Shown piece by piece: positions 9,108 through 46,142 of a stretch of DNA of 64,000 nucleotides (positions within the stretch are counted from its first letter, which is position 1; every line of letters starts with the position of its first letter). The DNA comes from Escherichia coli (GTDB lineage: Bacteria > Pseudomonadota > Gammaproteobacteria > Enterobacterales > Enterobacteriaceae). The notes under the pieces are model-generated. The model did not search any database. It was not told the origin of the DNA and saw nothing but the letters and a program-made list of their open reading frames with translations. The position numbers were made by a program, and so were the translations under genes. The stretch lies in the NCBI RefSeq assembly GCF_030013595.1, contig NZ_CP122768.1. The stretch is one strand, 5' to 3'.

Positions 9108-10679
9108 TTACTGAGAGCTCAGATCAACTTTCCAGGGCAACAGATCGCGTACCCGGTTTGCCGGCCAGTCCTGGATATGTTCAATGACGTAACGCAGCCA
9201 CTTTTCTGGCTCCACATTGTTCAGACGGCATGTGCCGATCAGCGAGTACAACACCGCCGCATGTTCACCACCGCTGTCGGAACCCGCGAACATCCAGTTT
9301 TTCCGGCCTACGGCCACTCCCCGTAAGGCGTTCTCTGCGATGTTGTTGTCGATTTCCACCCAGCCATTACTGCAGTACACGTTCAGTGCATCCCACTGTT
9401 TCAGCAGGTATGCGAACGCTTTTGCCGTATCTGAGTGACGCGACAGTGTTTTCATCTGTTGCTGTATCCAGTCATACAGTGACTGCATCAGTGGCGCGGC
9501 TCTGGCTTTTCTTGCCGCCAGACGCTGTTCTGCTGAACAGCCCCGGACCTCTGCCTCGATGGCATACAGTTCACCGATACGCTGCAGGGCTTCCGTGGTG
9601 ATGTAGGTGGGCGCTCTTGCATGCACATCGTGGATTTTTCTCCGGGCATGAGCCATACACGCGGCTTCCGTTATTCTGCCGGATTCGTATAACGCCCGGT
9701 AACCACCGTAAGCATCGGCCTGAAGCACACCGCTGTAACCGGCCAGGTGATTTTGTGGATGGATACCTTTCCGGTCCGGACTGTACGCGAACCAGACCGC
9801 CGGGGGCATCTGTGAACCGGCGTTACGGTCATCACGGACGTAGACCCACAGCCGGGCTGTCCGGGTTTTACCGCTGCCCGGCTCCTGGACCGGGACGGGG
9901 ATATCATCAGCATGGACTTTACCGGGCATCAGCACATACTGGCGCAGGACGTCATACAGCGGCTCCAGCAGTTCAGCAACAGCACCTGTCCAGCGCCCCA
10001 GTGTGGCACGGCTCAGCTCCACTCCCTGACGACGGTATATTTCTGACTGGCGGTATAACGGCAGATGGTCTGCATATTTCCCGGTGACAACATGGGCCAG
10101 AAGCCCCGCTCCGGCATAACTGCGTGCAATGGGTTTTGAAGGTACTGGTGCCTGTACGATATGGTCGCACCGGCAACAGGCCTGTTTCGGACGTTGTGTT
10201 TCGATAACCTTAAAGGCGCTGCTGATAAGCTCCAGTTGCTCTGACACATCACATCCCAGAGAACTGAGTTCACCACCACAGGCAGGACAGCATTCCTCTT
10301 CCGGCCGGATAACCCGGGTTTCACGGGGAAGTGAGGCCGGTAACGGTTTACGGGCTGAAGACTGGCGCAGGGCGGATGGCAGTACCGGGTCATATTGCTC
10401 ACCCAGCGTTTCCGCCATTTCTTCCTGAAGTGCGCTGATTCGCTCCTGTGCTTCCTGTATCTGCCGTTCGGTTTTTGCACGAAGTTTTTCTGAGCTTTTA
10501 CCGAACTGCATACGTTGCAGTTTCGCAACCAGCGCCTTCAGCCGGTTGATTTCGGAAGCATAAGCCGCCACCCGCTGTGAGAGCAGGCGGTTGTATTCAG
10601 CCATCTGGCGGATGGTGTCCTGTTGCGTCTGCAACAGTGCCCGCAGGCGGGCGTTCTCATGAGCAAGTGAGGTGTCCAT
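9108..10679 (-). CDS. tnpC: IS66-family transposase TnpC (orf3)
   Basis: 523-aa protein with an N-terminal coiled coil, a Cys-rich zinc-finger region (CPACGG...CCRCD) and a DDE-type core. Confidence 0.85.
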
Positions 10680-10698
10680 ATCCTCACTTTACAACGGG

Positions 10699-11046
10699 TT
10701 ATATGCGGATTCCAGCGCGTTCCGTTCGTTTCGGGTGCTTCCAGTTGATACCTTCAAGAAGCATGGATAACTGAGCCGGAGTAAGGTGCACCTTGCCGTC
10801 ACGGGTGACTGGCCAGACGAAGCGGCCCCGCTCCAGGCGTTTGGTGAAGAGGCACAGTCCGTCACTGTCAGCCCACAACACTTTTATCTGGTCACCCCGG
10901 CGTCCGCGGAAGATGAACAGGTGTCCGGAGAACGGGTCATCCTTCAGGACGTTCTGAACTTTTGATGCCAGGCCGTTAAAGCCATTTCGCATATCGGTGA
11001 TACCTGCAACCAGCCAGATACGCGAACCTGCAGGGAGAGATATCAT
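10699..11046 (-). CDS. tnpB: IS66-family accessory protein TnpB (orf2)
   Basis: 115-aa protein (MISLPAGSRIWLVAGITDMRNGFNGL...) typical of IS66 Orf2. Confidence 0.8.
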   Translation of the reverse strand: MISLPAGSRIWLVAGITDMRNGFNGLASKVQNVLKDDPFSGHLFIFRGRRGDQIKVLWADSDGLCLFTKRLERGRFVWPVTRDGKVHLTPAQLSMLLEGINWKHPKRTERAGIRI

Positions 11047-11720
11047 CAGTGGCTGCTCCCTTTTATTTCGCGGATAAGTGTCTGTAATAACGCCGGCGTC
11101 AGTTTACCTTTAAGCCTGAGAGTTCCGGCCGGCAGAACCAGCTCACAACACAGACTGTCGGACGGTGTATTTATCTGCTCTGGTTCCTGTGCGGGGGCCG
11201 GGATTTTATTATCCGGCTCCGGCGTTAACGTCACGGGAAGCAGTGCCGGCATATTTTTTCCGGAAGGCAGCAGGCCACCTTTCCGGTATTGATGGCGCCA
11301 GTTGAAGAGCAGGTTATCGTTGATTCCGTTTTCCCGGGCGATCTGCGCCACACAGGCTCCGGGCTGCAGTGACTGCTCCACTAAGGCGATTTTAAACTCA
11401 TAAGGGAAGTTGGGCCGCCGGGGACGTTTTTTTACCACGGGGGCTTCGGATATAACGGTGCTTTCAGGACGTACGACTGGTACCGTGGAAAATTGTCCGT
11501 AAAGGCAGGCATCAAGTTCCTGCTCCGACATGCCTGCGGGCAAAGGCCACGAAAGGCCAGCTCTCCGAAAGCGCACGAACATACTACAAACTGTTGATTT
11601 TGGTACACCCAGGCGACGCCCGGCCACAACCCGGGGTAAATGTTCTTCAAAGTGAAGACGTAAAGCTTCAGTGATCCAGGTCCGGTGTTTCATACGATAG
11701 TGTCCATTAAAAATGGACAT
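11046..11720 (-). CDS. tnpA: IS66-family TnpA (orf1) with an N-terminal extension
   Basis: Helix-turn-helix region FPYEFKIALVEQSLQPGACVAQIARENGINDNLLFNWRHQY. The stop overlaps the tnpB start. Which Met is the true start is unresolved. Confidence 0.65.
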   Translation of the reverse strand: MSIFNGHYRMKHRTWITEALRLHFEEHLPRVVAGRRLGVPKSTVCSMFVRFRRAGLSWPLPAGMSEQELDACLYGQFSTVPVVRPESTVISEAPVVKKRPRRPNFPYEFKIALVEQSLQPGACVAQIARENGINDNLLFNWRHQYRKGGLLPSGKNMPALLPVTLTPEPDNKIPAPAQEPEQINTPSDSLCCELVLPAGTLRLKGKLTPALLQTLIREIKGSSH

Positions 11721-11772: not shown

Positions 11773-12237
11773 CTATTCAGCTTCATAAAGCTTTTTGAAC
11801 ATGGGGCTTTGATCCCAGGCGATCCCTTTGTAACGCTTCATATTTTTCCGCAATTCATCCTTTGAAAGATTCATAAAACGGATTTTTAATTTTTCATCGG
11901 TTTCAGTGTTGTAAACCAAATGTTCCATCCCACGCCAGGAGGACTCCAGTTTCTGAAATTCCGGATGACTCAGGATTAGTTTGATCTGCTCAGTTAATTT
12001 GAAATCGATCTGCTCAATAATCGCAGCAATACTTTTATAAGCGTCGTCACTGACGGTGACGGTATTTGTCAAAGCCTGTTGGGCCAGCGTCTGAACTGCT
12101 GCCTCAACAGCCTTTGCTGCCTGAGGTGTCTTGGGACGGAAGGCTTTATCCAGGAGCGAATCAAATTCAGTGTCCTGATAGGCAGTGGTTTGCGCAGCAG
12201 AGAGTTCGCCAGTCGCCAGAAGAGTATCGTTTACCAT
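11773..12237 (-). pseudogene. tssC: T6SS sheath large subunit TssC, truncated to the N-terminal 154 codons by the IS66 element
   Basis: Contains the conserved FQKLESSWRG block of the TssC/VipB N-terminus. The reading frame ends in a TAG formed at the IS junction, and the remaining ~350 codons are absent. Confidence 0.8.
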
Positions 12238-12261
12238 GAAAGTTCCTTAATAAAATCGCAG

Positions 12262-12807
12262 TTAGTCTGCTGTTCCCGTTTCACCTGATAAGACACTTTC
12301 CTGTTGAGCGACAGGTTTTGGCGCACTAGCCAGAGCTTTCAGTAACGTAGGGTCTTGTAATAGTTTGTTGATAAGATTTTCTGCTCCCGCTTTACCATCC
12401 ATGTAGGTTTGTAGGTTGGCAAGCTGAGTACGCGCTTCCAGCAGCTGGTTCAGGGCATCCACCTTACGGGCAATCTGCGCAGGCGAAAAATCGTCCATAT
12501 TCTCTAACGTGATATCGACCATTAACTGCCCTTCGCCCGTCAGCGTATTGGGGACAGCAAACGCCACGCGCGGCGCAATGGCTTTCATCCTCTCGTTGAA
12601 GTTATCGATATCAATATCAAGGAATTTACGATCGGTGACCGGCGGCAGCTCTTCACGCGGTTTACCCGCCAGGTCGGCCAGCACCGCCATGACAAACGGC
12701 AGTTCGATTTTTTTCTCGGAGCCGTAAATCTCAACGTCATACTCAATCTGCACGCGGGGCGCGCGGTTGCGGGCAATAAACTTCTGCGCGCTGTTGTTGA
12801 TAGCCAT
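12262..12807 (-). CDS. tssB: T6SS sheath small subunit TssB (VipA)
   Basis: 181-aa protein with the TssB signature IEYDVEIYGSEKKIELPFVMAVLADLAG. Confidence 0.85.
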   Translation of the reverse strand: MAINNSAQKFIARNRAPRVQIEYDVEIYGSEKKIELPFVMAVLADLAGKPREELPPVTDRKFLDIDIDNFNERMKAIAPRVAFAVPNTLTGEGQLMVDITLENMDDFSPAQIARKVDALNQLLEARTQLANLQTYMDGKAGAENLINKLLQDPTLLKALASAPKPVAQQESVLSGETGTAD

Positions 12808-12868
12808 AATCCTTCATTTCCTTATCAGTCAGCCGACGACCACCTGGGGAGTGGCCCGACGGTACAGT

Positions 12869-13159
12869 TTAAAAATCATACGCAGAGAGTATTTTTATAA
12901 TCTCTTTGTTTTCTTTGTACTTTTCCCGAAGCACAGGGAGTGATTTCTTCGCCGGAGGACACCAGGTATCAACCCCCTTTTCGATGTCTCTTTTATCCTT
13001 CTCTGGTAAAGAACTGTCCCATTCACCAGCAAGATGCTGGCACATTTCCGCATTACTCAGAAAATGCTGTACATCCTGTGGTAAAGACGGTTCCCCCTGA
13101 ACACTGAAAGCGAACATCATTAACAGGAATGTCCACAACACCGGATAACGAAATGTCAT
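12869..13159 (-). CDS. Small secreted protein; putative immunity protein for the adjacent peptidase-like gene
   Basis: 96-aa ORF with a predicted Sec signal peptide (MTFRYPVLWTFLLMMFAFSVQG), two Cys residues, and a start 3 nt after the upstream gene's stop. Confidence 0.5.
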   Translation of the reverse strand: MTFRYPVLWTFLLMMFAFSVQGEPSLPQDVQHFLSNAEMCQHLAGEWDSSLPEKDKRDIEKGVDTWCPPAKKSLPVLREKYKENKEIIKILSAYDF

Positions 13160-13161
13160 AC

Positions 13162-13725
13162 TTAATGTCCATCAATTGACCAGTGGGGTATATCTGTATT
13201 TCCGCCTACAAATTTTCTGACGCCGTAACCCAGACCTACCGCCTGAAGCTGGGCATTCATTCCGGTTCGATGTAGTGTATTAATTGCAACATTCTGACCA
13301 TTGCTCCCCGCAATTGTTAATGTTCCGCTCCAACTGATATTCATATCTATCGCAGTACCGCGTGTATGGTTGGAGCTCAGTGCAGGCGCGACATTCAGAT
13401 TATTCATACCATAGGCCGTAACCATAGCCTGCGCCGCTTCAAGCGAGGCTTGCTCAGTCGGGTGAACCCACTCAATATCCACCCCCTCCATCGCCGGGAC
13501 GTTTTTTGCCTGAACGATTTCCTGAGCAATCAACCATGACCAGTGCATGAGATATGCTCTGGCGGGAGGGCGATATGTTGCAGAGATACTGACCCTTGCA
13601 CGCGCATTACCAAGCGCGCGCAAAAAATTATCTACCGATGCACGAAAAGTCCCCTGCAAATCATTAGTGGAAGAACTTCCAGGAAAGCGACTGACCCACA
13701 GTGCGCCACTTAATTCTTTTGCCAT
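13162..13725 (-). CDS. Putative LAS/M15-type zinc metallopeptidase; candidate T6SS peptidoglycan-hydrolase effector
   Basis: 187-aa protein without a signal peptide. It carries an exact SxHxxGxAxD motif (SNHTRGTAID) and C-terminal His residues (IPHWSIDGH). It lies between clpV and tssB. Confidence 0.5.
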   Translation of the reverse strand: MAKELSGALWVSRFPGSSSTNDLQGTFRASVDNFLRALGNARARVSISATYRPPARAYLMHWSWLIAQEIVQAKNVPAMEGVDIEWVHPTEQASLEAAQAMVTAYGMNNLNVAPALSSNHTRGTAIDMNISWSGTLTIAGSNGQNVAINTLHRTGMNAQLQAVGLGYGVRKFVGGNTDIPHWSIDGH

Positions 13726-13737
13726 AAGGATGCTCCA

Positions 13738-16371
13738 TTAATCCGTTTCAAAAATAATCTGTTCATCCTCATCAACACGAATGCGGATTTGCGTGATGGC
13801 CGTTTTCTCTGTCATCGCCTGCAACCAATAACGGGACAGTTGTGGGAGGATATGTTGTTCGATATAGCCGATGAGCAAACGAGCGCCGGTCTCGTGCATC
13901 GGGCAGCGCGACACAATATGCGTAATCAGTTCATCGCCATACACCAGTGAAACGCCATGCCGCTCCGCCATCCGATCCATCAATCTGCCAAGATGCAGGC
14001 GGGCAATAACACCACGCGCGGTCTCATCCAGCGGTAAATAAGGAATAACCGTCACACGCCCCAGGAAAGCCGCCGGGAAGTGTTTACGTAACTCCGGCAT
14101 TAACGCCTCTTTTAACCCTGCCGAATCGGGCATCAGCGCCGGATCTTCACAGAGCTGGCTGATAAGTTCCGCCCCCGCGTTAGTAGTCAACAACAGCGTG
14201 GTATTTTTGAAATCGATGTGGACACCTTCGCCATCTTCCATCGCCCCCTTATCAAACACCTGGAAGAACAGCTCGTGGACGTCGTGATGGGCTTTTTCAA
14301 TTTCATCTAGCAATACCACGCTCCAGGGATGGCGGCGTACCGCTTCCGTCAACACACCGCCTTCGCCATAGCCGACGTAGCCGGGCGGCGCGCCTTTCAG
14401 AGTGGAGACTGTGTGAGACTCCTGATACTCGCTCATGTTGATGGTGATCAGATTCTGTTCACCGCCATAGATTGCTTCTGCCAGTGCCAGCGCGGTCTCA
14501 GTCTTGCCTACTCCGGACGGCCCGGCCAGCAAAAAGACACCCACAGGCTTACGCGGGTCACCTAAACCCGCCCGCGCGGTCTGGATACGCTCGCCAATCT
14601 GCGCCAACGCATCCATCTGCCCGGTAACACGCTGCGCCAAACGGGTGGGCAATTCCAGTATCTGACTGGCTTCATCTTTCACCATCCGTCCGGCGGGAAT
14701 ACCGGTCCAGTCGGAGACAATCTCTGCCACCACGGTTGCACTGACTTCCGGGTACACGACAGGGTTTTCACCCTGCCAGCCTCTTAATGCCGTTTCTGCC
14801 TGTTGTAGAGTGATTTCGTCGCGCTCGCCAGGCGCTGCGCCGCGTTGCTCCTGTAAACTGCGAACCAACTCCAGTTCCTGCTGCCACCGCGCTTCGGTGT
14901 CAGAAAGATCGGCATTAAGCGATATAATCCGCGCCGTCAGTACATCGCCCCGCTCCGAGCGGATACCCATTTTTTCCTGCTTTAATAACAACTCCTGCTC
15001 CAGTTCGGCAGCGTTGAGCTGCTGGCGCAGATACTGGACTCTCGCAGGCGGGGTATGCAGCGACAGCGCTACACGGGCCGCCGCCGTATCCAACAGGCTG
15101 ATGGCCTTATCCGGTAGTTGCCGGGCCGGAATGTAACGGTGAGAAAGCTGTACGGCGGCGCGCACGGCCTCATCAAGAATCAGGACATCATGGTGTTCTT
15201 CAAGCGTGGTGACTAATCCGCGCACCATCTCAACAGCCGCAACCTCTTCCGGCTCAGCAACCTGCAATACCTGAAAACGCCGGGTCAGCGCCGGATCCTT
15301 TTCGATATGGCGTTTGTACTCGCTCCAGGTGGTTGCGCCGATGGTGCGCAGAGTGCCACGCGCCAGCGCCGGTTTCAGCAAGTTGGCAGCATCCCCCGTA
15401 CCGGATGTACCACCAGCGCCCACCAGGGTGTGAACTTCATCAACAAAAAGTATCACCGGCTGCGCCGAGCGCGCGGCCTCTTCCAGCAAAGCTTTCAGGC
15501 GGGATTCAAATTCACCCTTCATGGACGCCCCAGCCAGCAGCGCTCCAACATCCAGTGACAGCAACCGCACGTTACGCAGTGAAGGCGGCACTTCCCCCCC
15601 GGCAATCGCCAGCGCGAATCCTTCCACCACTGCCGTTTTCCCGACCCCCGCCTCGCCGGTCAGCAGCGGGTTGTTCTGGCGACGGCGCAGCAGAATATCC
15701 GTCATAGTACGGATCTCGTGTTCGCGGCCGGTGACCGGATCGATATTGCCTTCACGGGCCAGCGCAGTCATGTCCTGGCAGTATTTCGCCAGCGCGGATT
15801 TACTTCCGGTTGATTCGCCGGCAAAGACCTGGCTAGCTTCCCCCGGTACTGCAGAATTTAAATCCGAGCCGTCATAAGGCATTTCTGTTAATTCAGGAGA
15901 TGAAGTGATTAAAGACGGAAGAATATCTAATAGTTCATCTACCGGTAGCTCTGCCAATGGCGCACAAATATTTTTTAACACCCGACACAATTCTGGCGTG
16001 GTTAACCAGGCAAGTAATAACCATCCACTACGAATTTTTTGATCGCCAAAGCGGATACTTGCCAACATCCAGGCTTTTTCAACAGAAAGATCGATATGAT
16101 GGGAAAAATCGTTAATTACACTCGCTCCGGCAGGCAATATATTCAATTGCTGAATTAACGCCTTCTCAACATCAGCAGATGTTATTTGATAATGTCGAAG
16201 CACATTGTGAATGTCATTCTCTGGTTGTTGTATTAACTGATGCAACCAATGCGTCAGTTCGACATAAGGATTAGCGCGTAATTTACAGAACGTCGTCGCA
16301 GATTCCAAAGATCTAAACAAAGATTTGGTTAGCTTTCCATACAGTGCACTGCGCGAAACAGGAGTGTCCAT
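13738..16371 (-). CDS. clpV: T6SS AAA+ ATPase ClpV (TssH)
   Basis: 877-aa protein with two AAA+ modules (Walker A GEAGVGKT and GPSGVGKT) and a ClpV-type N-domain. Confidence 0.9.
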   Translation of the reverse strand: MDTPVSRSALYGKLTKSLFRSLESATTFCKLRANPYVELTHWLHQLIQQPENDIHNVLRHYQITSADVEKALIQQLNILPAGASVINDFSHHIDLSVEKAWMLASIRFGDQKIRSGWLLLAWLTTPELCRVLKNICAPLAELPVDELLDILPSLITSSPELTEMPYDGSDLNSAVPGEASQVFAGESTGSKSALAKYCQDMTALAREGNIDPVTGREHEIRTMTDILLRRRQNNPLLTGEAGVGKTAVVEGFALAIAGGEVPPSLRNVRLLSLDVGALLAGASMKGEFESRLKALLEEAARSAQPVILFVDEVHTLVGAGGTSGTGDAANLLKPALARGTLRTIGATTWSEYKRHIEKDPALTRRFQVLQVAEPEEVAAVEMVRGLVTTLEEHHDVLILDEAVRAAVQLSHRYIPARQLPDKAISLLDTAAARVALSLHTPPARVQYLRQQLNAAELEQELLLKQEKMGIRSERGDVLTARIISLNADLSDTEARWQQELELVRSLQEQRGAAPGERDEITLQQAETALRGWQGENPVVYPEVSATVVAEIVSDWTGIPAGRMVKDEASQILELPTRLAQRVTGQMDALAQIGERIQTARAGLGDPRKPVGVFLLAGPSGVGKTETALALAEAIYGGEQNLITINMSEYQESHTVSTLKGAPPGYVGYGEGGVLTEAVRRHPWSVVLLDEIEKAHHDVHELFFQVFDKGAMEDGEGVHIDFKNTTLLLTTNAGAELISQLCEDPALMPDSAGLKEALMPELRKHFPAAFLGRVTVIPYLPLDETARGVIARLHLGRLMDRMAERHGVSLVYGDELITHIVSRCPMHETGARLLIGYIEQHILPQLSRYWLQAMTEKTAITQIRIRVDEDEQIIFETD

Positions 16372-16703
16372 CTGTTACACCTAATGATGTAAGAACATAT
16401 AAATGATACATAAACATAACTGTACCGATTAAAACTTCTAATTAATAGAATTATCAAAAAGGCCGAATGAAACAATGATGCATATCACAGAACACAATGT
16501 AATATAGCAGGTAGTATCTTTTTCATGGTGATATTCAATAGAGCAAGCCAATTTCATACATACCATGAATATATTAAATTGAAAATCGCCACTATATATT
16601 TCCGCGAAAACTTATATTGATAAAGTAAATTGATCAGCATTGCTTATCTAAAAATTTAGAAAACTTATTCTTTTGAAAGAAACATTCTACACAGTGATAC
16701 ACA
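16372..16703. promoter_or_regulatory. AT-rich divergent intergenic region between clpV and the FHA gene (probable divergent promoters)
   Basis: About 330 bp of strongly AT-rich sequence between two divergently oriented T6SS operons. Confidence 0.5.
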
Positions 16704-17624
16704 ATGAAACCAAATATTACGTGGGGACTCCAAAAAATACAGGCGCACGGGATCGCCGATAACACAATTTACGCGACTGAAGGAACCCAAATTATCTTCA
16801 CCGTTACCTCCCCCTGGATTCCTGTTTTTGAGGTGAATGATGATGTAAAGATTGCCCTCAGTCTGACCCGCCACGAAGAAGCATGGTGGATTATCAATCA
16901 GTCTACCGAATATTGCTGTACGGTAAACGACCAGATTGTGGAACCTCATCACCGTATGCGTCTGAATGAAGGCGACCTGATAGAATGGGGGTTATCTTCA
17001 TGGTGCCTTGTGCACGGCAATCCATCATCTCCGGACCTGAGCGCAGTAAAAACGACATCGCAGACTGCCACCATGTCGGAAACAATAACCGAATATCTGG
17101 ATCTGGATTGGTTCAGGCAGCAGCATCTGACATCACAAAATCCATTCGATATCATTCCTGTTCATGGAGCCTCCTCCACTGGAGAAGATGCTAAAAAAGA
17201 AAATGCCCTGACTCGACTTTATCAGGAATACCGCGAGGCGTTGTTATCTCCTGAACAAGATCTTCATCGCCATGCTGATCCTTTTCCCTTTAACGAAGAG
17301 CCCTCCTCACAGGATCTGGATTCATTGCGTGATCTGGTCACTGAAGCCGAGACATTGCAGGATATGGTCACTGGCGGGTTAAGCATTGACGCTATTCTCG
17401 ATGTCCTGGACGCCACCGGCGAAGGGGAAACCGCCTGGCCTGCCGAAAAGACGCCCCCAGATATCCTGCACCTGCTATCCCCGGAATGCGCACCGGAAAC
17501 AGCGCATAACACCGTTCTGCCCGACCTGACACGCAAAGAGCATCGCATCATTGGCATTGACATTGACAGCCATTATCGGATAAACCCGGCACAACACGGA
17601 GAGATATCTCATGACAAACAATAA
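16704..17624 (+). CDS. tagH: T6SS-associated FHA-domain protein (TagH/Fha-like), short form
   Basis: N-terminal FHA-like domain and an acidic C-terminal half. First gene of the + strand T6SS operon. Confidence 0.65.
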   Translation: MKPNITWGLQKIQAHGIADNTIYATEGTQIIFTVTSPWIPVFEVNDDVKIALSLTRHEEAWWIINQSTEYCCTVNDQIVEPHHRMRLNEGDLIEWGLSSWCLVHGNPSSPDLSAVKTTSQTATMSETITEYLDLDWFRQQHLTSQNPFDIIPVHGASSTGEDAKKENALTRLYQEYREALLSPEQDLHRHADPFPFNEEPSSQDLDSLRDLVTEAETLQDMVTGGLSIDAILDVLDATGEGETAWPAEKTPPDILHLLSPECAPETAHNTVLPDLTRKEHRIIGIDIDSHYRINPAQHGEISHDKQ

Positions 17625-18441
17625 CGAGCTACCGGCTACCCTGTCGGCGCTGCTGCGGGATTATTCCGTGGCGGAGGGCATTCAAATGGCAGAACAGCAG
17701 GTCAGGATGCACCCGGCGCAGGCCTCCCGCCGCCACAGCCTATTTCAGTTATTGTGCGTGGCAGGCTACTGGTCGCGGGCACTGCAACAGATCCAGCTAT
17801 GCGCCCGGATGGACGCAAATTATACCCGCGAAGCGCAGGTATTTGGCGAGCTGATACGCTGTGAGATATACCGCCACGCCTGCTTTCAGGGAGAACAGCG
17901 GCCCGATTTTATTCTCCCGCCGCCCGCCTGGATGGAGGATCTGCTGACCGCCCTCGCCTGTAACGCTCGTGGTGAAGCGCAGGAAGCTGACGCCCACCGC
18001 AGCCGCGCACTTGAGGCCATAACAGATACTGCAGGGCAGTGGAATGGTGGCGCATTTGACTGGATTAGCGACAGCGACTCCCGTACCGGTCCGGTACTCG
18101 AACTCATCGCGGGCGGAGTATATATCTGGCTGCCGTTTTCACAAATCTGTTCGCTAAAATCGCCGCGGCCTGCGCATCTGACCGATTTGATCTGGAAACC
18201 CGTCAACGTCACACTGAATAATGGCGACACACACAGTGCCTGGCTGTTTTCCCGCTACAGCGGCTCTGAAAAGGCTGCCGACTCCCTGCGTCTGTGCCGG
18301 GAAACGGTCTGGCAGGACGGGCCGGGAGAGACTCTGGTACAGGCGCTGGGTCAGAGGGTGTGGCTCACCGGTCACGGCGATATCAGCCTGCTGGATTTGT
18401 CCACCTGTACCTTTAACACCGCTGAAGGAAGCGACGCGTGA
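17611..18441 (+). CDS. tagJ: T6SS accessory protein TagJ (ImpE family)
   Basis: 276-aa protein of ImpE-like size, translationally coupled between the FHA gene and tssE. Confidence 0.6.
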   Translation: MTNNNELPATLSALLRDYSVAEGIQMAEQQVRMHPAQASRRHSLFQLLCVAGYWSRALQQIQLCARMDANYTREAQVFGELIRCEIYRHACFQGEQRPDFILPPPAWMEDLLTALACNARGEAQEADAHRSRALEAITDTAGQWNGGAFDWISDSDSRTGPVLELIAGGVYIWLPFSQICSLKSPRPAHLTDLIWKPVNVTLNNGDTHSAWLFSRYSGSEKAADSLRLCRETVWQDGPGETLVQALGQRVWLTGHGDISLLDLSTCTFNTAEGSDA

Positions 18442-18932
18442 GCGCTTCCCGCCAGCGTCCGGGCAATCACCTGCTGCCCACGCTGTTTGACCGCCTGTGT
18501 GATGATGCCCCAAACCAGAAACGCGACCACGATATCAGCGTCAGCCCGGTTCAGCTTAAGGAGATCATTCGCCGGGATTTGTCATTTCTGCTCAACACCG
18601 TCAGCCATGAAGATGATATTGATGCTGCACGTTATCCGGACGCGGCAGCGTCCGTACTGAACTACGGCCTGCCGCCACTGGCGGGCAGCTTTCTGTATGA
18701 ACACAAGTGGGACGATATTCGCAGGGCCATTTTGCGTACCATCATCCGGTTTGAACCCCGGCTGAAAGCGTCCACCCTGCAAATCATCCCACTTCAGGAT
18801 GAGCGCCACCAGAGCGGCCATAACACATTACAGTTTGAAATTCGCGGCGAGATCCTCACGCAGCCCTACCCGATGGCATTCCGGGTACGCAGCGCGCTGG
18901 ATATGGAACAGAGCCGCATTACGTTTTTTTAA
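18438..18932 (+). CDS. tssE: T6SS baseplate protein TssE (gp25-like)
   Basis: 164-aa protein. Its start overlaps the tagJ stop and it immediately precedes tssF. Confidence 0.8.
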   Translation: MSASRQRPGNHLLPTLFDRLCDDAPNQKRDHDISVSPVQLKEIIRRDLSFLLNTVSHEDDIDAARYPDAAASVLNYGLPPLAGSFLYEHKWDDIRRAILRTIIRFEPRLKASTLQIIPLQDERHQSGHNTLQFEIRGEILTQPYPMAFRVRSALDMEQSRITFF

Positions 18933-18947
18933 TTCAGAGAGAAACCG

Positions 18948-20830
18948 ATGGATCCACGGCTACTGGAATACTACAACCGCGAACTGAGCTATCTGCGGGA
19001 AACGGGAGCCGAATTTGCCGCCCGTCATCCTAAAGTCGCCGCCCGACTGGGTATGCAGGGAACGGATATTGCCGATCCGTATGTGGAGCGAATGGTCGAG
19101 GCCTTCAGCTTCCTGACCGCCCGCACGCAGCTAAAAATTGACGCTGAATTCCCCCGTTTCACCCAGCGTCTGCTGGAAGTGGTCAGCCCCAATTACGTCA
19201 CACCCACGCCCTCAATGAGCGTGGCGCAGCTTCATCCCAATCCGGAAGAAGGCGATCTGGCGAAGGGATTCACCGTCCCGCGCAACACGGCCTTTTTTTC
19301 CGCCATTCCGGAAGGCGAAAGTACCGCCTGCCAGTTTCGTAGCAGCCAGAATGTGACGCTGTGGCCGCTTGCCATCGAAGAGGTGCGGCTGACCGCCGCG
19401 CCGCCGGATATGCCTGCCCTGCACCGCTACCTGCCAGCCAACATTCACGTCGCTGGTGCGCTGCGTATTACCCTGCGCACCTTTGGTGAACTGACGTTCA
19501 GTCAGCTTGCAGGGCTGAACAAGCTGCCATTTTATCTCTGCGGCGAGGAGCGCACGGCCTCACACCTGTTCGAACTACTGCATACCAGCGCCATCGCGAG
19601 CCTGGCTGGCATTCCGGGGCATTTTGACGGCGCACTGGATGTGAATCTGAAACAGCCCGTTATGTACGAAGGCCTGGATCCGGATCAGGGACTGTTGCCG
19701 CTGGCGTGGAATGTGTTTCACGGCCATAACCTGCTACATGAATATTTTACCTGTCCGGAACGCTTCTTTTTTTCACCCCGACAGGCCTGTCTGCCGGGTT
19801 ACAGAAAATTAACGGCGGCGTGGCGGAGATTGTTATCCTGCTGAACCGCCTGCCGCCGGACTGGCTGATCCACCAGACAAACGCGGCACAGTTCAGCCTG
19901 TTCTGTACCCCGGTTATCAACCTGTTTCCCCGCGTCGCCGCCCGGATCGATGTCACGCACAGCACGACGGAACAGCATCTGGTGGTGGACAGAACCCATC
20001 CGCTGGATTATGAGGTGTTCTCGGTCCAGGAAGTGGAAGGGCTGGAAACTGACACCACACGGAAGATGGCCTTTCGCCCGCTCTACCACACCCGCAATAA
20101 TGATGAAGGCAATCACGGACGTTATTTTTCCCTGCGCCGGGAGCCGCGCCGGTTGTCGGAAAATGCCCGCCGCTATGGCACCCGCACCTCCTATACAGGA
20201 TCAGAAGTGTTCCTGTCGCTGGTTGACCAGTATGAAGCGCCGTACCCGGAAAATCTGCGCCATATCACCATCACGGCTATGGTCACCAACCGCGATCTGC
20301 CCTGTCTTATTGCCCGCAATGGACGGGACGATCTGACCGTGGATGCGGCCATCCCGGTGGCGGGCGTGGGGCTTATCCGTCCGCCGCGTCCGCCGCAGCC
20401 TCCGCTGGCTGAACGTGAAATGGCCTGGCGGTTGATCCGCCAGTTATCCTTTAACTATCTGCCGCTGGCCGATCTGGATCACCGTACCGGTGGTCAGGCG
20501 CTGCGCGATCTGCTTAACCTGTTTATTCCGGCGCATGACAGTCCGCAGTCGCGCCAGGTGCGCAGCCTGATTGGCTGCAACACCACCCCGGTCACCCGCC
20601 GTCTGCCCGGTTCCGGGCTGCTGGTCTATGGGCGCGGCGTCAGTTGTGAACTGACCGTGGATGAGGAGGGGTTCTCCGGTATCAGTCCGTATCTGTTCGG
20701 TCTGGTGTTGGAGCACTATATCGCCCGTCATGTTTCCATTAATACCTTCTCGCAGATGACGCTGCACAGCATGCAGCGCGGCAAAATTATGACCTGGCCT
20801 GCCAGGGCGGGACAGCGGGGAAGCGTATGA
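18948..20830 (+). pseudogene. tssF: T6SS baseplate protein TssF, interrupted by a frameshift in a T7 homopolymer
   Basis: Two overlapping ORFs (18948-19844 and 19820-20830) together give a TssF-sized protein of about 620 aa. The frame changes inside the T-run at 19767-19773. Confidence 0.75.
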
Positions 20831-21822
20831 GCGACGATTTCACTCAGGCGCAGGAAACCCCCTGGCGTTACGGTTTTCTGAACCTGATGCGCCGCGTGGA
20901 TGTGCAGTTGTGTACTGTTCCGGCAGGCAACACCTGGCAACCACGGATGGAAAAATTTCGCCTCGGACAAACTCCCGCGCTGACCTTTGCGCCACGGGAA
21001 ATCGCCAGTGTGAGCTGGCAGGAAGAGCGGCTGCACATCAGTTTGTACAGTCTCGGGCTGTGGGAGCCGAACGGTCCACTGCCGCTGCACTACACCGAAC
21101 TGGCGCGCAACCGGACTGAAAGCCGAAGAGACCCGACGCTAACCCGTTTTTCTGATCTTTTTCATCACCGCTGGCTGACGCAGTTTTACCAGGCATGGCG
21201 CAGCGCCCAGTCCGCTGGGGGCGGTCTGGATAAACCACAACATGACCGTTTTGCCTTTTATATCGCCAGCCTCAGCGGGCAGGATTTGCGGGAGAGCGCC
21301 GACAGCCCGTTGCCGGATCACGCTCGCCTGGCGGCATCGGCCCATCTGGTGCGTGAGTCCCGCAATCCGGACGGTCTGGCCACCACGCTGGCGCACTATT
21401 TCGGTGTACCTTTCCGGATACAGGAGTATGTCCTGCACTGGATAGCCGTGGCGGACGATGAGATCACCCGGCTGGGGATGCCAGCCCCCTCTTCCGTTAT
21501 TGGCAACGGTGCACTCATCGGCCAGGCCGTGCCGGACATGCAGTATAAGTTCCGGCTGGTTATCGGCCCGCTGACGCTGGAGGATTACCGACGTTTTCTG
21601 CCTGGCGGCAATAACCTGCCAGTCCTGACAGAACTGGTCCGCGCCTTTAGCGGTTTTGAATACTGCTGGGAAATTGAGCTACAGCTAAAGCCCCACGCCG
21701 CCCCTCCGGCTGTTACCGGTGGTTCGTACCAACTGGGCTGGACCGCATGGGCGGGTAAAGCCATGCACGAAAACCCGGTGACGGGCATGATTTTCGAACC
21801 AGAACACTACCTGGCGCACTGA
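20827..21822 (+). CDS. tssG: T6SS baseplate protein TssG
   Basis: 331-aa protein whose start overlaps the tssF stop (ATGA), in the conserved tssE-F-G order. Confidence 0.8.
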   Translation: MSDDFTQAQETPWRYGFLNLMRRVDVQLCTVPAGNTWQPRMEKFRLGQTPALTFAPREIASVSWQEERLHISLYSLGLWEPNGPLPLHYTELARNRTESRRDPTLTRFSDLFHHRWLTQFYQAWRSAQSAGGGLDKPQHDRFAFYIASLSGQDLRESADSPLPDHARLAASAHLVRESRNPDGLATTLAHYFGVPFRIQEYVLHWIAVADDEITRLGMPAPSSVIGNGALIGQAVPDMQYKFRLVIGPLTLEDYRRFLPGGNNLPVLTELVRAFSGFEYCWEIELQLKPHAAPPAVTGGSYQLGWTAWAGKAMHENPVTGMIFEPEHYLAH

Positions 21823-21832
21823 GGATAATTTA

Positions 21833-22879
21833 ATGGATACATCCCTGTCTGACCCAATTTCGGCAGAATGCCCCTGCGGCCCGGATCTGGAGTACGATCC
21901 GGAATACCTGCTACTGTTCACGCGCGCCGCACCGCGTGAAGAAGCGCAATACGGCGATTTTGTCAGTACGCCGGAAACCATTAACTGGGCGGAGCTTGAG
22001 CGGGATGCCTGCCGACTGCTGACGCGCAGCAAAGATATCCGCATTCTGGTTGTCCTGCTGCGCTGCCGTATCCAGCAGGCCGGTGCCAGGGGACTGGCGG
22101 AGGCGCTCGCGCTGCTGGAAACGTTGTGCGCCACGTACCCGAACGCCATCCATCCTCAACTGCTCGCGACTGAAGATATCACCGCCGAAGAGGCGGCAGT
22201 GGCACGTAGTAACGCCCTGGCGGCGTTGCTGGACCATGAAGGCGTAATAGCGGATATTCGTGGCATTACACTGTCAAACAATGCTGCCATACGCCTTCAG
22301 GTACGGGATGTGGAGCGTTCGCTGTCTGCATCACGCCCGGCGGATGCGCTGGCACCAGAATCGGTACGCCAGCAACTGGCCGACCTGGAGGCGCGCGGCA
22401 CACTGCCGCTGGATGCCTTTCGCCAGGCCGCAGAGACCACTGAGCGGCTGCAACGCCATGCGCGTGAAACGCTGAATGACCAGGCACCGAACCTATCCCG
22501 TCTGACACAATTGCTGGCCCTGTTGCCGGGAGCGATACGGACCACCACGCCGGAGATCCTGCCACAACCAGTGGCTGAACAGCCGGAGAGCACCACCATC
22601 GTTCATACTGAACAGATATCATCAGAGCAGATTGCGCTACCGGTGCATATCGCGGAGGAAATATCACCGATGTCCGGCGCAGACCCCCGGCAGATCCGCG
22701 ACCGGAACGACGCGCTGGAACGCCTGCGTGTCATCCGTCGCTGGTTTGAGCACAGCGAACCGAGCAGCCCGACCATTCCTTTGCTGCGCCAGGCAGAACG
22801 CCTGGTCGGAAAACGCTTCTCGGAGGTAATAAATGAAATTCCAGTAGAACTGCTGGAAAAATGGGATGCGCTGGAGTAA
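21833..22879 (+). CDS. tssA: ImpA N-domain protein (TssA family, short form)
   Basis: N-terminus MDTSLSDPISAECPCGPDLEYDPEY resembles the ImpA_N domain. At 348 aa it is shorter than canonical TssA. Confidence 0.65.
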   Translation: MDTSLSDPISAECPCGPDLEYDPEYLLLFTRAAPREEAQYGDFVSTPETINWAELERDACRLLTRSKDIRILVVLLRCRIQQAGARGLAEALALLETLCATYPNAIHPQLLATEDITAEEAAVARSNALAALLDHEGVIADIRGITLSNNAAIRLQVRDVERSLSASRPADALAPESVRQQLADLEARGTLPLDAFRQAAETTERLQRHARETLNDQAPNLSRLTQLLALLPGAIRTTTPEILPQPVAEQPESTTIVHTEQISSEQIALPVHIAEEISPMSGADPRQIRDRNDALERLRVIRRWFEHSEPSSPTIPLLRQAERLVGKRFSEVINEIPVELLEKWDALE

Positions 22880-23010: not shown

Positions 23011-23087
23011 TGGCGGAACGGACGGGACTCGAACCCGCGACCCCCTGCGTGACAGGCAGGTATTCTAACCGACTGAACTACCGCTCC
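23011..23087 (-). tRNA. aspV: tRNA-Asp (GUC)
   Basis: The reverse complement reads GGAGCGGTAGTTCAGTCGGTTAGAATACCTGCCTGTCACGCAGGGGGTCGCGGGTTCGAGTCCCGTCCGTTCCGCCA. Confidence 0.95.
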
Positions 23088-25232: not shown

Positions 25233-25991
<759 letters not shown>

Positions 25992-26062
25992 TAAAACTTT
26001 CTTGTCATCGGCTCCGTTCGCCGTTATGATCGGTCGTCTTTTAAGCAACTATTGACACACAC

Positions 26063-45941: not shown

Positions 45942-46142
45942 GTGGAAAAATATTGTGAGTTAATACGCAAGCGGTACGCGGAAATCGCCAGCGGAGACTT
46001 AGGATACGTTCCGGACGCGCTGGGCTGCGTTTTGAAAGTGCTGAATGAAATGGCTGCCGACGACGCCCTTTCTGAGGCTGTCAGGGAAAAAGCAGCATAC
46101 GCTGCGGCAAACTTACTGGTGAGCGATTATGTCAATGAATGA
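45942..46142 (+). CDS. yaeP: Small protein YaeP
   Basis: 66 aa from GTG 45942 behind an AGGAGGG ribosome-binding site ([19 protein letters not shown]...). Confidence 0.8.

What the first reader, a model, noticed from the sequence alone, without database searches (positions are those of the whole stretch)
16372..16703. AT-rich divergent control region between the two T6SS operons
About 330 bp of very AT-rich sequence separates clpV (- strand) from the FHA gene (+ strand). Such regions in horizontally acquired secretion loci are typical targets of xenogeneic silencing (H-NS) and carry the divergent promoters. Since the cluster is crippled, this region may still drive expression of the effector-like pair and tssB.
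Basis: inference. Interest (0 to 1): 0.3.

Follow-up and report, generated by a model that had tools for sequence, protein, structure and literature searches.

The report
Silenced two-way T6SS promoter region
This AT-rich gap is the shared two-way control region of a Salmonella SPI-6-type secretion-system gene cluster, a kind of region already shown in Salmonella to be silenced by H-NS, so it is ordinary apart from one 22-bp block conserved across genera.

Summary
Window 16372-16703 is a 332-bp gap between tssH/clpV (minus strand) and tagK (plus strand). At 28% GC it is the most AT-rich 332-bp stretch in the 64-kb window (52% GC overall).

The "FHA gene" is TagK. Its N-terminal ~105 residues do have an FHA fold.

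The cluster is an SPI-6-type (subtype i3) T6SS at tRNA-Asp. It is crippled: IS66 truncates tssC, the distal half is missing and tssF is split.

Fifteen orthologous clpV/tagK gaps from Escherichia, Enterobacter, Citrobacter, Salmonella and metagenomes are all 330-426 bp and 23-30% GC.

In S. Typhimurium the orthologous region is bound by H-NS (ChIP-exo, EMSA), and Fur is reported to bind the clpV promoter. The H-NS/divergent-promoter reading is therefore supported by orthology, but not tested on this sequence.

One addition: a 22-bp block at 16470-16491, AAACAATGAT-N4-ATCA-NN-GA, is nearly invariant across genera although the rest of the gap has diverged. It overlaps a conserved sigma-70-like promoter facing clpV and sits at fixed spacing from a conserved -10-like hexamer facing tagK. 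It is probably an operator. Its binding factor could not be identified: Fur, FNR and CRP consensus matches are no better than chance.

Verdict: a new member of a known kind, of low interest.

The parts
16372..16703 (.). AT-rich (28% GC) divergent intergenic control region between tssH/clpV and tagK
   Evidence: The arrangement, length (330-426 bp) and low GC (23-30%) are conserved in 15 distinct orthologous loci.
13738..16371 (-). tssH/clpV, first gene of the minus-strand operon, 877 aa, intact
   Evidence: TIGR03345 VI_ClpV1, 1219 bits; Pfam AAA_2, AAA_lid_9 and ClpB_D2-small.
16704..17624 (+). tagK, first gene of the plus-strand operon tagK-tagJ-tssE-tssF-tssG-tssA, with an FHA-fold N-terminus
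   Evidence: NF033418, 547 bits; Pfam FHA 19.6 bits, below cut-off; predicted structure and PDB fold search.
16470..16491 (.). Cross-genus conserved block AAACAATGAT-GCAT-ATCA-CA-GA. The palindrome TGAT-N4-ATCA lies at 16476-16487 with its centre at 16481.5. Candidate operator.
   Evidence: Alignment A3. It contains a run of 10 columns at >=90% conservation, reached in 2 of 20000 column shuffles. It sits 98-102 nt from the clpV ATG in 17 of 18 sequences examined. It is the only copy in the cluster.
16475..16480 (-). Predicted -10 hexamer of a clpV-ward sigma-70 promoter: CATCAT here, TATCAT in 9 of the 11 other-genus sequences
   Evidence: PWM scan mapped onto alignment A3. This was the best conserved prediction, reaching the score threshold in 9 of 15 sequences. 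It is a prediction only.
16497..16502 (-). Predicted -35 of the same promoter: TTACAT here with a 16-bp spacer, TTGnnA/TTGnnT in 9 of the 11 non-Escherichia sequences
   Evidence: Prediction only.
16512..16517 (+). Conserved hexamer TA[A/G]TAT (TAGTAT here), 24 nt after the block without gaps in the alignment. Candidate -10 for a tagK-ward promoter, which would place the palindrome centre at about -41.5/-42.5.
   Evidence: Invariant columns T171, A172, A175, T176 in A3; spacing. Prediction only.
16378..16382 (-). Shine-Dalgarno sequence of clpV (AGGTG on the minus strand), conserved
11773..13725 (-). Genes co-directional with and downstream of clpV: 187-aa ORF (13162-13725), 96-aa ORF (12869-13159), tssB (12262-12807), truncated tssC (11773-12237)
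9108..11720 (-). IS66-family element (tnpA, tnpB, transposase) that truncates tssC and marks the deletion of the distal half of the cluster
17611..22879 (+). Rest of the plus-strand operon: tagJ, tssE, tssF (split at about 19820-19844), tssG, tssA
23011..23087 (-). tRNA-Asp (aspV-type) flanking the island, as for Salmonella SPI-6
   Evidence: PMC12288458.

Best explanation
The 332-bp gap is the shared divergent regulatory region of the two core operons of an SPI-6-type (i3) T6SS inserted at tRNA-Asp. One operon is tssH(clpV)-orf187-orf96-tssB-tssC' on the minus strand. The other is tagK-tagJ-tssEFGA on the plus strand.

Its conserved AT-richness makes it, together with the AT-rich 5' end of clpV, a nucleation and spreading platform for H-NS. 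H-NS keeps both operons almost silent under ordinary conditions. This step is inferred by orthology to Salmonella.

Inside the gap, a 22-bp block conserved across genera (16470-16491) most likely combines two things. One is the core of the clpV promoter: a -10 TATCAT/CATCAT plus discriminator, with a -35 TTGnnN 16 bp upstream. The other is a palindromic operator, TGAT-N4-ATCA. A regulator bound there would cover the clpV -10 and, at the same time, the -35 position of a tagK-ward promoter whose -10-like hexamer TA[A/G]TAT lies 24 nt away. One site would then control both directions.

The regulator is not identified. Fur, reported to bind the Salmonella clpV promoter, and a CRP/FNR-type protein are the leading candidates.

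In this window the control region is intact but the machine it served is not. It is a regulatory relic that can at most drive clpV, two small genes, tssB and the plus-strand operon (tagK, tagJ, tssE, split tssF, tssG, tssA).
For: Gene identities and divergent layout.

Composition: this is the lowest-GC 332-bp stretch of the window.

Orthologues: the same layout, a length of 330-426 bp and 23-30% GC against 50-63% flanks hold in 15 distinct orthologues across at least 4 genera.

Selection: within Escherichia the gap is more conserved (83-92% identity) than 4-fold degenerate sites of clpV (68-86%). Between genera those sites are saturated (about 40%), yet the block is invariant.

Block: its statistics are. 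The spacings to the clpV ATG and to TA[A/G]TAT are constant.

Promoter: a conserved TTGnnN-16-TATCAT prediction faces clpV.

Salmonella orthologue: H-NS_Region_036 is assigned to tagK.../tssH, with intensity 0.998 falling to 0.117 and log2FC -3.2 in macrophages (PMC11770342). H-NS shifts the clpV promoter in EMSA and clpV is derepressed in delta-hns (PMC10657408). Fur binds the clpV promoter according to Wang 2019, as cited.

Integrity: the gap is 330/332 identical to that of an E. coli strain that keeps the full gene complement.
Against: Nothing was measured on this sequence. There is no transcription start site and no binding data.

The strict sigma-70 scan found 0 sites against 2.5 expected in shuffles.

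In the Escherichia lineage the predicted clpV promoter is weaker (TTACAT/CATCAT) than in the other genera, so a different promoter may be used here.

No H-NS high-affinity motif, Fur box, FNR site or CRP site exceeds what shuffled AT-rich DNA gives.

Salmonella raw read counts for sciG are low everywhere. They are no higher under anaerobic growth than in early stationary phase (20-24 vs 18-25), which gives no support to FNR activation.

The primary Salmonella papers (Brunet 2015, Wang 2019) could not be read, so their footprints could not be mapped onto the block.
Confidence: 0.75

Rival explanations
1. The conserved block is a Fur operator. Under iron-replete conditions Fur sits on the clpV -10 and represses. 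This would be the site reported by Wang et al. 2019 in Salmonella.
For: Fur is reported to bind the Salmonella clpV promoter directly and to repress it (cited). By my own count, the block reads as three direct GATAAT-like hexamers (AACAAT GATACA GATCAC), matching 12 of 18 positions in most genera. The block overlaps the predicted -10, which is the typical position for a repressor.
Against: The 19-bp Fur consensus matches the block at only about 11/19. The best Fur-like sites in the window (13/19 at 16437-16455) and in Salmonella (12/19) lie elsewhere and are no better than shuffles, 29% and 81% of which reach them. The TGAT/ATCA spacing is 4, not the 1 or 7-1-7 of Fur boxes. The Escherichia version is worse, at about 9-10/18 by my count.
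Confidence: 0.3
2. The block is a CRP/FNR-family site acting as a class II activator site for the tagK-ward promoter, and possibly repressing clpV. The arrangement would resemble H-NS-silenced promoters that need an activator.
For: The invariant TGAT-N4-ATCA is the FNR core (8/10 of TTGAT-N4-ATCAA). It also matches CRP's TGTGA-N6-TCACA at 8/10 in most sequences; C. koseri matches the 22-bp CRP consensus at 15/22. The palindrome centre lies 41.5-42.5 bp upstream of the start implied by the conserved TA[A/G]TAT hexamer, with gap-free spacing in 15 sequences and no conserved -35.
Against: Matches of this quality occur in 40-50% (FNR) or 11-18% (CRP) of shuffles. The positions that discriminate FNR from CRP are neither T nor G consistently, and Salmonella has TCAGG rather than TCACA. 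There is no anaerobic induction in Salmonella raw counts. No paper in the searched library links CRP or FNR to SPI-6. The left flank AAACAA is invariant, which a symmetric dimer site does not explain.
Confidence: 0.2
3. The block is only core promoter DNA: the -10, discriminator and start site of PclpV. No dedicated regulator binds it.
For: TTGnnN-16-TATCAT is the best conserved sigma-70 prediction. The invariant AAACA would then be the discriminator and start region.
Against: This does not explain the invariant ATCA at -16 to -19 and the G at -22 in what would be the spacer. In the Escherichia clade the -10 T1 and the -35 G are both mutated while the palindrome stays perfect.
Confidence: 0.2
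4. The AT-rich gap is non-functional spacer: mutational AT drift in non-coding DNA, or a junction between two acquired modules.
For: Most of the gap is unalignable between genera and tolerates insertions of 30-100 bp.
Against: The length class, AT-richness and divergent synteny are kept in all 15 loci. Within Escherichia the gap is more conserved than 4-fold degenerate sites. It contains a block invariant across genera. The orthologue in Salmonella has documented H-NS binding and is treated as the promoter region there.
Confidence: 0.03
5. The gap encodes a small protein or a small RNA.
For: Small ORFs exist: a 42-aa ORF at 16438-16566 on the minus strand runs through the block, and a 31-aa ORF lies on the plus strand.
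Against: The starts, lengths and frames of these ORFs are not conserved, and Salmonella has no equivalent ORF through the block. Rfam gives no credible hit. Both putative leaders fold no better than shuffles, with z-scores of -0.09 and -0.15.
Confidence: 0.03

Closest known systems
Salmonella enterica SPI-6 (i3) T6SS: tagK(sciF)/tssH(clpV, sciG) intergenic promoter region
   Same: Both are islands at tRNA-Asp with the same gene order and divergent clpV/tagK. The Salmonella gap is 368 bp at 26% GC. The 22-bp block and the TAATAT hexamer are shared at the same spacing. The Salmonella region is documented as bound by H-NS and Fur and is treated as the promoter region of both units.
   Different: TagK is only 56% and the ClpV N-terminus about 78% identical. 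Outside the block the gap is essentially unalignable (54% global identity). The Escherichia block has GCAT instead of ACAG, so it loses the GATC (Dam) site and the T1 of the predicted -10, and the -35 TTG becomes TTA. Here the cluster is truncated and cannot build a machine.
EAEC sci-1 T6SS promoter (Fur box overlapping GATC/Dam sites; Brunet et al. 2011, cited)
   Same: Both are enterobacterial T6SS promoters with reported Fur repression. In the non-Escherichia orthologues a GATC lies inside the conserved candidate operator.
   Different: sci-1 is a different T6SS lineage with a different promoter position. No Fur box is demonstrable here. The window's block has no GATC. The comparison rests on recollection of that paper, which was not read here.
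H-NS-silenced AT-rich control regions of horizontally acquired islands (e.g. SPI-1, SPI-2)
   Same: There is a strong AT excess relative to the genome, a location in an acquired island at a tRNA gene, and very low basal expression of the orthologous genes.
   Different: No counter-silencer (such as SsrB, SlyA or LeuO) is known or identifiable here. c-di-GMP release of H-NS is reported for Salmonella only.

Membership tests
SPI-6-type (i3) T6SS tagK/tssH divergent control region | Lies between divergently transcribed tssH/clpV and tagK, which head the two core operons | tested here: met
SPI-6-type (i3) T6SS tagK/tssH divergent control region | Island inserted next to tRNA-Asp (aspV) | tested here: met
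   tRNA-Asp at 23011-23087, directly after tssA; SPI-6 lies at aspV.
SPI-6-type (i3) T6SS tagK/tssH divergent control region | Sequence homology of the gap itself to the Salmonella region | tested here: met
   The 22-bp block, the TA[A/G]TAT hexamer and the clpV leader/SD are shared in register. The rest has diverged.
SPI-6-type (i3) T6SS tagK/tssH divergent control region | Promoter activity in both directions | not testable with these tools
   Only predictions are available. The Salmonella authors treat it as the promoter region of both units.
H-NS (xenogeneic silencing) target | AT content far above the genome average over several hundred bp | tested here: met
   28% GC against 52%; 0.04 percentile; the trough extends into clpV.
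H-NS (xenogeneic silencing) target | High-affinity nucleation motif (tCGATAAATT-like) | tested here: inconclusive
   The best match is 8/10, reached by 70% of shuffles.
H-NS (xenogeneic silencing) target | H-NS occupancy in vivo and derepression in an hns mutant | not testable with these tools
   Shown only for the Salmonella orthologue.
Fur-regulated promoter | Fur box resembling GATAATGATAATCATTATC | tested here: inconclusive
   The best match is 13/19 at 16437-16455, reached by 29% of shuffles. The block matches about 11/19.
Class II CRP/FNR-dependent promoter | Palindromic TTGAT-N4-ATCAA or TGTGA-N6-TCACA site | tested here: inconclusive
   Both consensus sequences match at 8/10, which is not above chance in a single sequence. 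The core is, however, invariant across genera.
Class II CRP/FNR-dependent promoter | Site centred near -41.5 from a mapped start site | not testable with these tools
   No start site is available. The geometry fits only relative to the conserved -10-like hexamer.
Class II CRP/FNR-dependent promoter | Induction under the cognate signal (anaerobiosis for FNR) | tested here: not met
   Salmonella sciG raw counts are 20-24 under anaerobic growth and 18-25 in early stationary phase. The data are un-normalised, come from the orthologue only, and may be masked by H-NS.
   Pfam FHA scores 19.6 bits, below the 20.7 cut-off. The predicted fold matches FHA or FHA-like domains almost exclusively among the top 47 PDB hits. 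By family the protein is TagK (NF033418), not Fha/TagH.

The most novel reading that the evidence does not exclude
The invariant block AAACAATGAT-N4-ATCA-NN-GA is an undescribed single operator through which one conserved enterobacterial regulator controls both divergent core operons of i3-type T6SS clusters. It would cover the clpV -10 and the tagK -35 position at once. The Escherichia lineage has rewired it, losing the embedded Dam GATC site and weakening the clpV -10 and -35 while keeping the palindrome.
Probability: 0.3. Interest if true: 0.4.

Novelty: new member of a known kind. Interest (0 to 1): 0.25.

Why it matters
The finding shows that a rare E. coli T6SS, present in 120 of 5426 complete genomes, carries the same control region as Salmonella SPI-6. 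What is known about H-NS, Fur and c-di-GMP control there can probably be transferred.

The conserved 22-bp block gives a precise, testable target for finding the factor that opens or closes this otherwise silent weapon.

For this particular genome it matters little. The cluster is broken, so the region is a regulatory relic.

Tried and rejected
- **Rfam scan of 15800-17300:** only two chance hits, both to eukaryotic RNA families.
- **Strict promoter/terminator scan:** nothing found.
- **Consensus scans** for Fur (19-mer and 7-1-7), FNR, CRP, ArgR and the H-NS motif in five orthologues: none above shuffles.
- **Further copies of the block:** none in the full-length cluster from another strain or elsewhere in the window. 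The single 2-mismatch hit at 46134 is unrelated and falls between called ORFs (not followed up).
- **Metagenome scan for the 18-mer AAACAATGATACAGATCA:** 36 hits. Only 3 are in a clpV/tagK context. The rest are chance hits in unrelated low-GC organisms, several at ORF starts, so no regulon emerged.
- **Small ORFs in the gap:** not conserved.
- **RNA structure of the putative leaders:** z-scores about 0.
- **Repeats in the gap:** only short two-copy families, likely chance.
- **Primary papers:** Brunet 2015, Wang 2019 and Kroger 2012 are not held. One literature search (sciG/sciF) returned only noise.
- **Start-site lookup:** the supplements of PMC6333337 gave expression counts but no start sites for sciF or sciG.
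- **Source genome:** no complete RefSeq E. coli genome has the yafV/IS66 junction. One strain, PK-F-10122, shares the IS66/tssC junction but keeps the distal cluster.
- **Genome-collection scan with the TagK profile:** only 6 loci, none from Salmonella. Salmonella and other orthologues were obtained by exact-protein look-ups instead.

Full report
**Observation**

Window 16372-16703 is exactly the gap between two start codons. One belongs to an 877-aa minus-strand ORF (13738-16371). The other belongs to a 306-aa plus-strand ORF (16704-17624).

The first ORF is the T6SS ATPase TssH/ClpV (TIGR03345, 1219 bits against a cut-off of 885). The second is TagK (NF033418, 547 bits against a cut-off of 200).

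The gap is 28.0% GC in a window that averages 52.2%. Only 0.04% of all 332-bp windows are as AT-rich, and the global minimum (27.1%) sits at 16387-16718. The low-GC trough continues at about 40% GC for roughly 550 bp into the 5' end of clpV.

**The "FHA gene"**

Pfam FHA scores 19.6 bits (E = 0.0012), just under its 20.7-bit cut-off.

An AlphaFold model built on 16 homologues gives a confident beta-sandwich for residues 1-105 (pLDDT 70-91). The rest of the protein is poorly predicted.

Foldseek against the PDB returns almost only FHA or FHA-like (T3SS YscD/PscD-type) domains among the 47 hits with E <= 1e-3. The label is structurally fair, although the protein belongs to the TagK family and not to Fha/TagH.

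**Context**

Megablast finds the region in only 120 of 5426 complete E. coli genomes, always annotated tagK | tssH.

A relative that keeps every gene (NZ_CP015229, locus L001; its tssL carries an internal stop) shows the full cluster. In order it has vgrG, tagF-domain, tae4/tai, tssM, tssL, tssK, tssJ, hcp, tssC, tssB, two small genes and tssH. Running divergently are tagK, tagJ, tssE, tssF, tssG and tssA, followed by tRNA-Asp and dnaQ.

The window has the same tRNA-Asp at 23011-23087. Location at aspV, Tae4/Tai4 cargo and this gene order are those of Salmonella SPI-6, a subtype i3 T6SS.

"Crippled" is confirmed on three counts:
- tssC ends as a 154-aa fragment against an IS66-family element at 9108-11720.
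- To the left of the IS lie core genes (yafV, ivy, fadE, gmhA), so the whole distal half of the cluster is deleted.
- tssF is split into two ORFs.

**Comparative anatomy**

I collected 15 distinct orthologous clpV/tagK gaps. They come from Escherichia clades, Enterobacter, Citrobacter amalonaticus and C. koseri, Salmonella enterica and unnamed metagenome or read-archive assemblies.

All are 330-426 bp and 23-30% GC, against flanks of 50-63% GC. AT-richness is thus a conserved property of this gap and not a local accident.

Within Escherichia the gap is 83-92% identical to the window. 4-fold degenerate sites of the adjacent clpV are 68-86% identical. This argues for purifying selection, with the caveat that skewed composition inflates identity.

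Between genera, 4-fold sites are saturated at about 40% identity and most of the gap is unalignable, with insertions of 30-100 bp.

**The conserved block**

Against that diverged background one element stands out: window 16470-16491, AAACAATGAT-GCAT-ATCA-CA-GA.
- It contains a run of 10 columns and a run of 7 columns at >= 90% conservation. A run of 10 arises in only 2 of 20000 column shuffles.
- It holds a perfect palindrome, TGAT-N4-ATCA, at 16476-16487.
- It starts 98-102 nt from the clpV ATG in 17 of the 18 sequences examined. The exception, C. koseri, has a 30-bp insertion.
- A second small conserved element, TA[A/G]TAT (16512-16517; TAGTAT here), follows 24 nt later without a single gap in the alignment.

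Two exceptions and one lineage difference are informative. L013 has TGAC instead of TGAT, and its clpV is split into two ORFs. All 11 non-Escherichia sequences carry a GATC in the right arm (cAGATCA). All Escherichia-clade copies have GCATATCA and no GATC.

**What the block could be**

*Core promoter of clpV.* An AT-corrected sigma-70 weight-matrix scan, mapped onto the alignment, gave one best conserved prediction, on the minus strand. The -10 is TATCAT inside the block, with a -35 of TTGnnA/TTGnnT 16 bp upstream. Nine of 15 sequences score above threshold, including Salmonella at TTGCTA-16-TATCAT. That would start the clpV mRNA about 97-100 nt before its ATG. In the Escherichia clade both hexamers are weaker (TTACAT, CATCAT).

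*An operator.* The promoter reading explains the invariant ATGAT and AAACA (-10 and discriminator). It does not explain the invariant ATCA and G further upstream in what would be the spacer. The palindrome also stays perfect where the hexamers have decayed. I therefore favour an operator that overlaps the clpV -10.

Relative to the TA[A/G]TAT hexamer read as a tagK-ward -10, the palindrome centre falls at -41.5/-42.5. That is the position of a class II activator site, or equally of a repressor covering the -35. One bound protein could therefore govern both directions.

**Identity of the binder: unresolved**

Matches to the Fur 19-mer and 7-1-7 box, to FNR (8/10), to CRP (8/10; 15/22 in C. koseri), to the ARG box and to the H-NS high-affinity motif are no better than shuffled sequence gives.

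No second copy exists in the cluster.

A metagenome scan for the 18-mer found only three further clpV/tagK loci plus unrelated chance hits.

Raw read counts for the Salmonella orthologue are very low in all conditions. They are not raised by anaerobic growth, which gives FNR no support.

No paper in the searched library links CRP or FNR to SPI-6.

**H-NS and Fur: evidence by orthology**

In S. Typhimurium 14028s, ChIP-exo defines H-NS_Region_036 (311285-312094) and assigns it to tssA-tssG-tssF-tssE-tagJ-tagK / tssH. Binding intensity falls from 0.998 outside macrophages to 0.117 inside them (log2FC -3.2).

H-NS shifts clpV promoter DNA in EMSA, and clpV, hcp1, tae4 and vgrG are derepressed in delta-hns. 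c-di-GMP blocks H-NS binding (PMC10657408).

Reviews report direct Fur binding to the clpV promoter, citing Wang 2019. The primary Brunet 2015 and Wang 2019 papers are not held, so their footprints could not be placed on my alignment.

**Alternatives checked and set aside**

- Rfam gives no credible hit.
- Both putative leaders fold like shuffled sequence.
- Small ORFs in the gap, including a 42-aa ORF that reads through the block, are not conserved in start, frame or length.
- Short repeats in the gap look like chance.

**Does the region still do anything here?**

The window's gap differs from that of the full-length relative at only two positions, 16425 and 16632. Its regulatory capacity should therefore be unchanged.

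clpV is intact. It is followed at short distances by the 187-aa and 96-aa ORFs, tssB and the tssC stump. Co-transcription from the gap is plausible but not shown.

The "effector-like" nature of the pair has no significant family support. The 187-aa gene is absent from the Salmonella locus examined.

**Verdict**

This is the E. coli-type orthologue of a known, experimentally characterised H-NS-silenced divergent T6SS control region, sitting in a decayed cluster. It is ordinary, and its interest is low.

The one thing worth carrying forward is the 22-bp candidate operator conserved across genera, together with its lineage-specific rewiring in Escherichia.

Noticed in passing
window 17556-17561 (approx.), tagK residues 285-286: The window's TagK carries an in-frame two-residue 'ID' duplication (IGIDIDSHYR against IGIDSHYR in all 15 homologues), giving 306 aa instead of 304.
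   Followed up: partly
window 8629-9107: The second most AT-rich stretch of the window (28.9% GC at 8750-9081) lies between yafV and the IS66 element. E. coli genomes annotate a SymE-family type I toxin and a hypothetical protein there. No complete RefSeq E. coli genome has this exact junction.
   Followed up: partly
window 25564-25995: The third low-GC trough (30.7% GC) appears to fall inside the 251-aa ORF 25236-25991, which corresponds to gloB in the relative. This is unusual for a core gene.
   Followed up: no
L016:737-2662: In one metagenome contig the gene upstream of the conserved gap begins with a ClpV-like N-terminus but continues as a 641-aa Rhs/YD-repeat protein. This is either a rearrangement or an assembly chimera. 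The gap and block are retained.
   Followed up: no
L013:1-2648 and its block: clpV is split into two ORFs. The conserved block carries the only arm mutation seen (TGAC instead of TGAT, which also destroys the predicted -10 A). This is consistent with joint decay of gene and control site.
   Followed up: partly
window 12869-13725: The 187-aa ORF directly after clpV is variable between genera: absent in Salmonella, 126 aa in C. koseri, and frameshifted and called 'peptidoglycan-binding domain-containing' in one E. coli strain. The 96-aa ORF after it is present in the Salmonella, C. koseri and E. coli loci examined. Neither has a significant Pfam hit.
   Followed up: partly
window 16632-16635: The only GATC in the window's gap is created by a window-specific G. 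The full-length relative L001 has A at 16632. The ancestral GATC inside the conserved block is absent from all Escherichia copies.
   Followed up: partly
window 16500-16505: Escherichia copies have an extra TAATAT hexamer 12 nt after the block, in addition to the aligned TAGTAT at 16512-16517. It could be an alternative tagK-ward -10 specific to this lineage.
   Followed up: no
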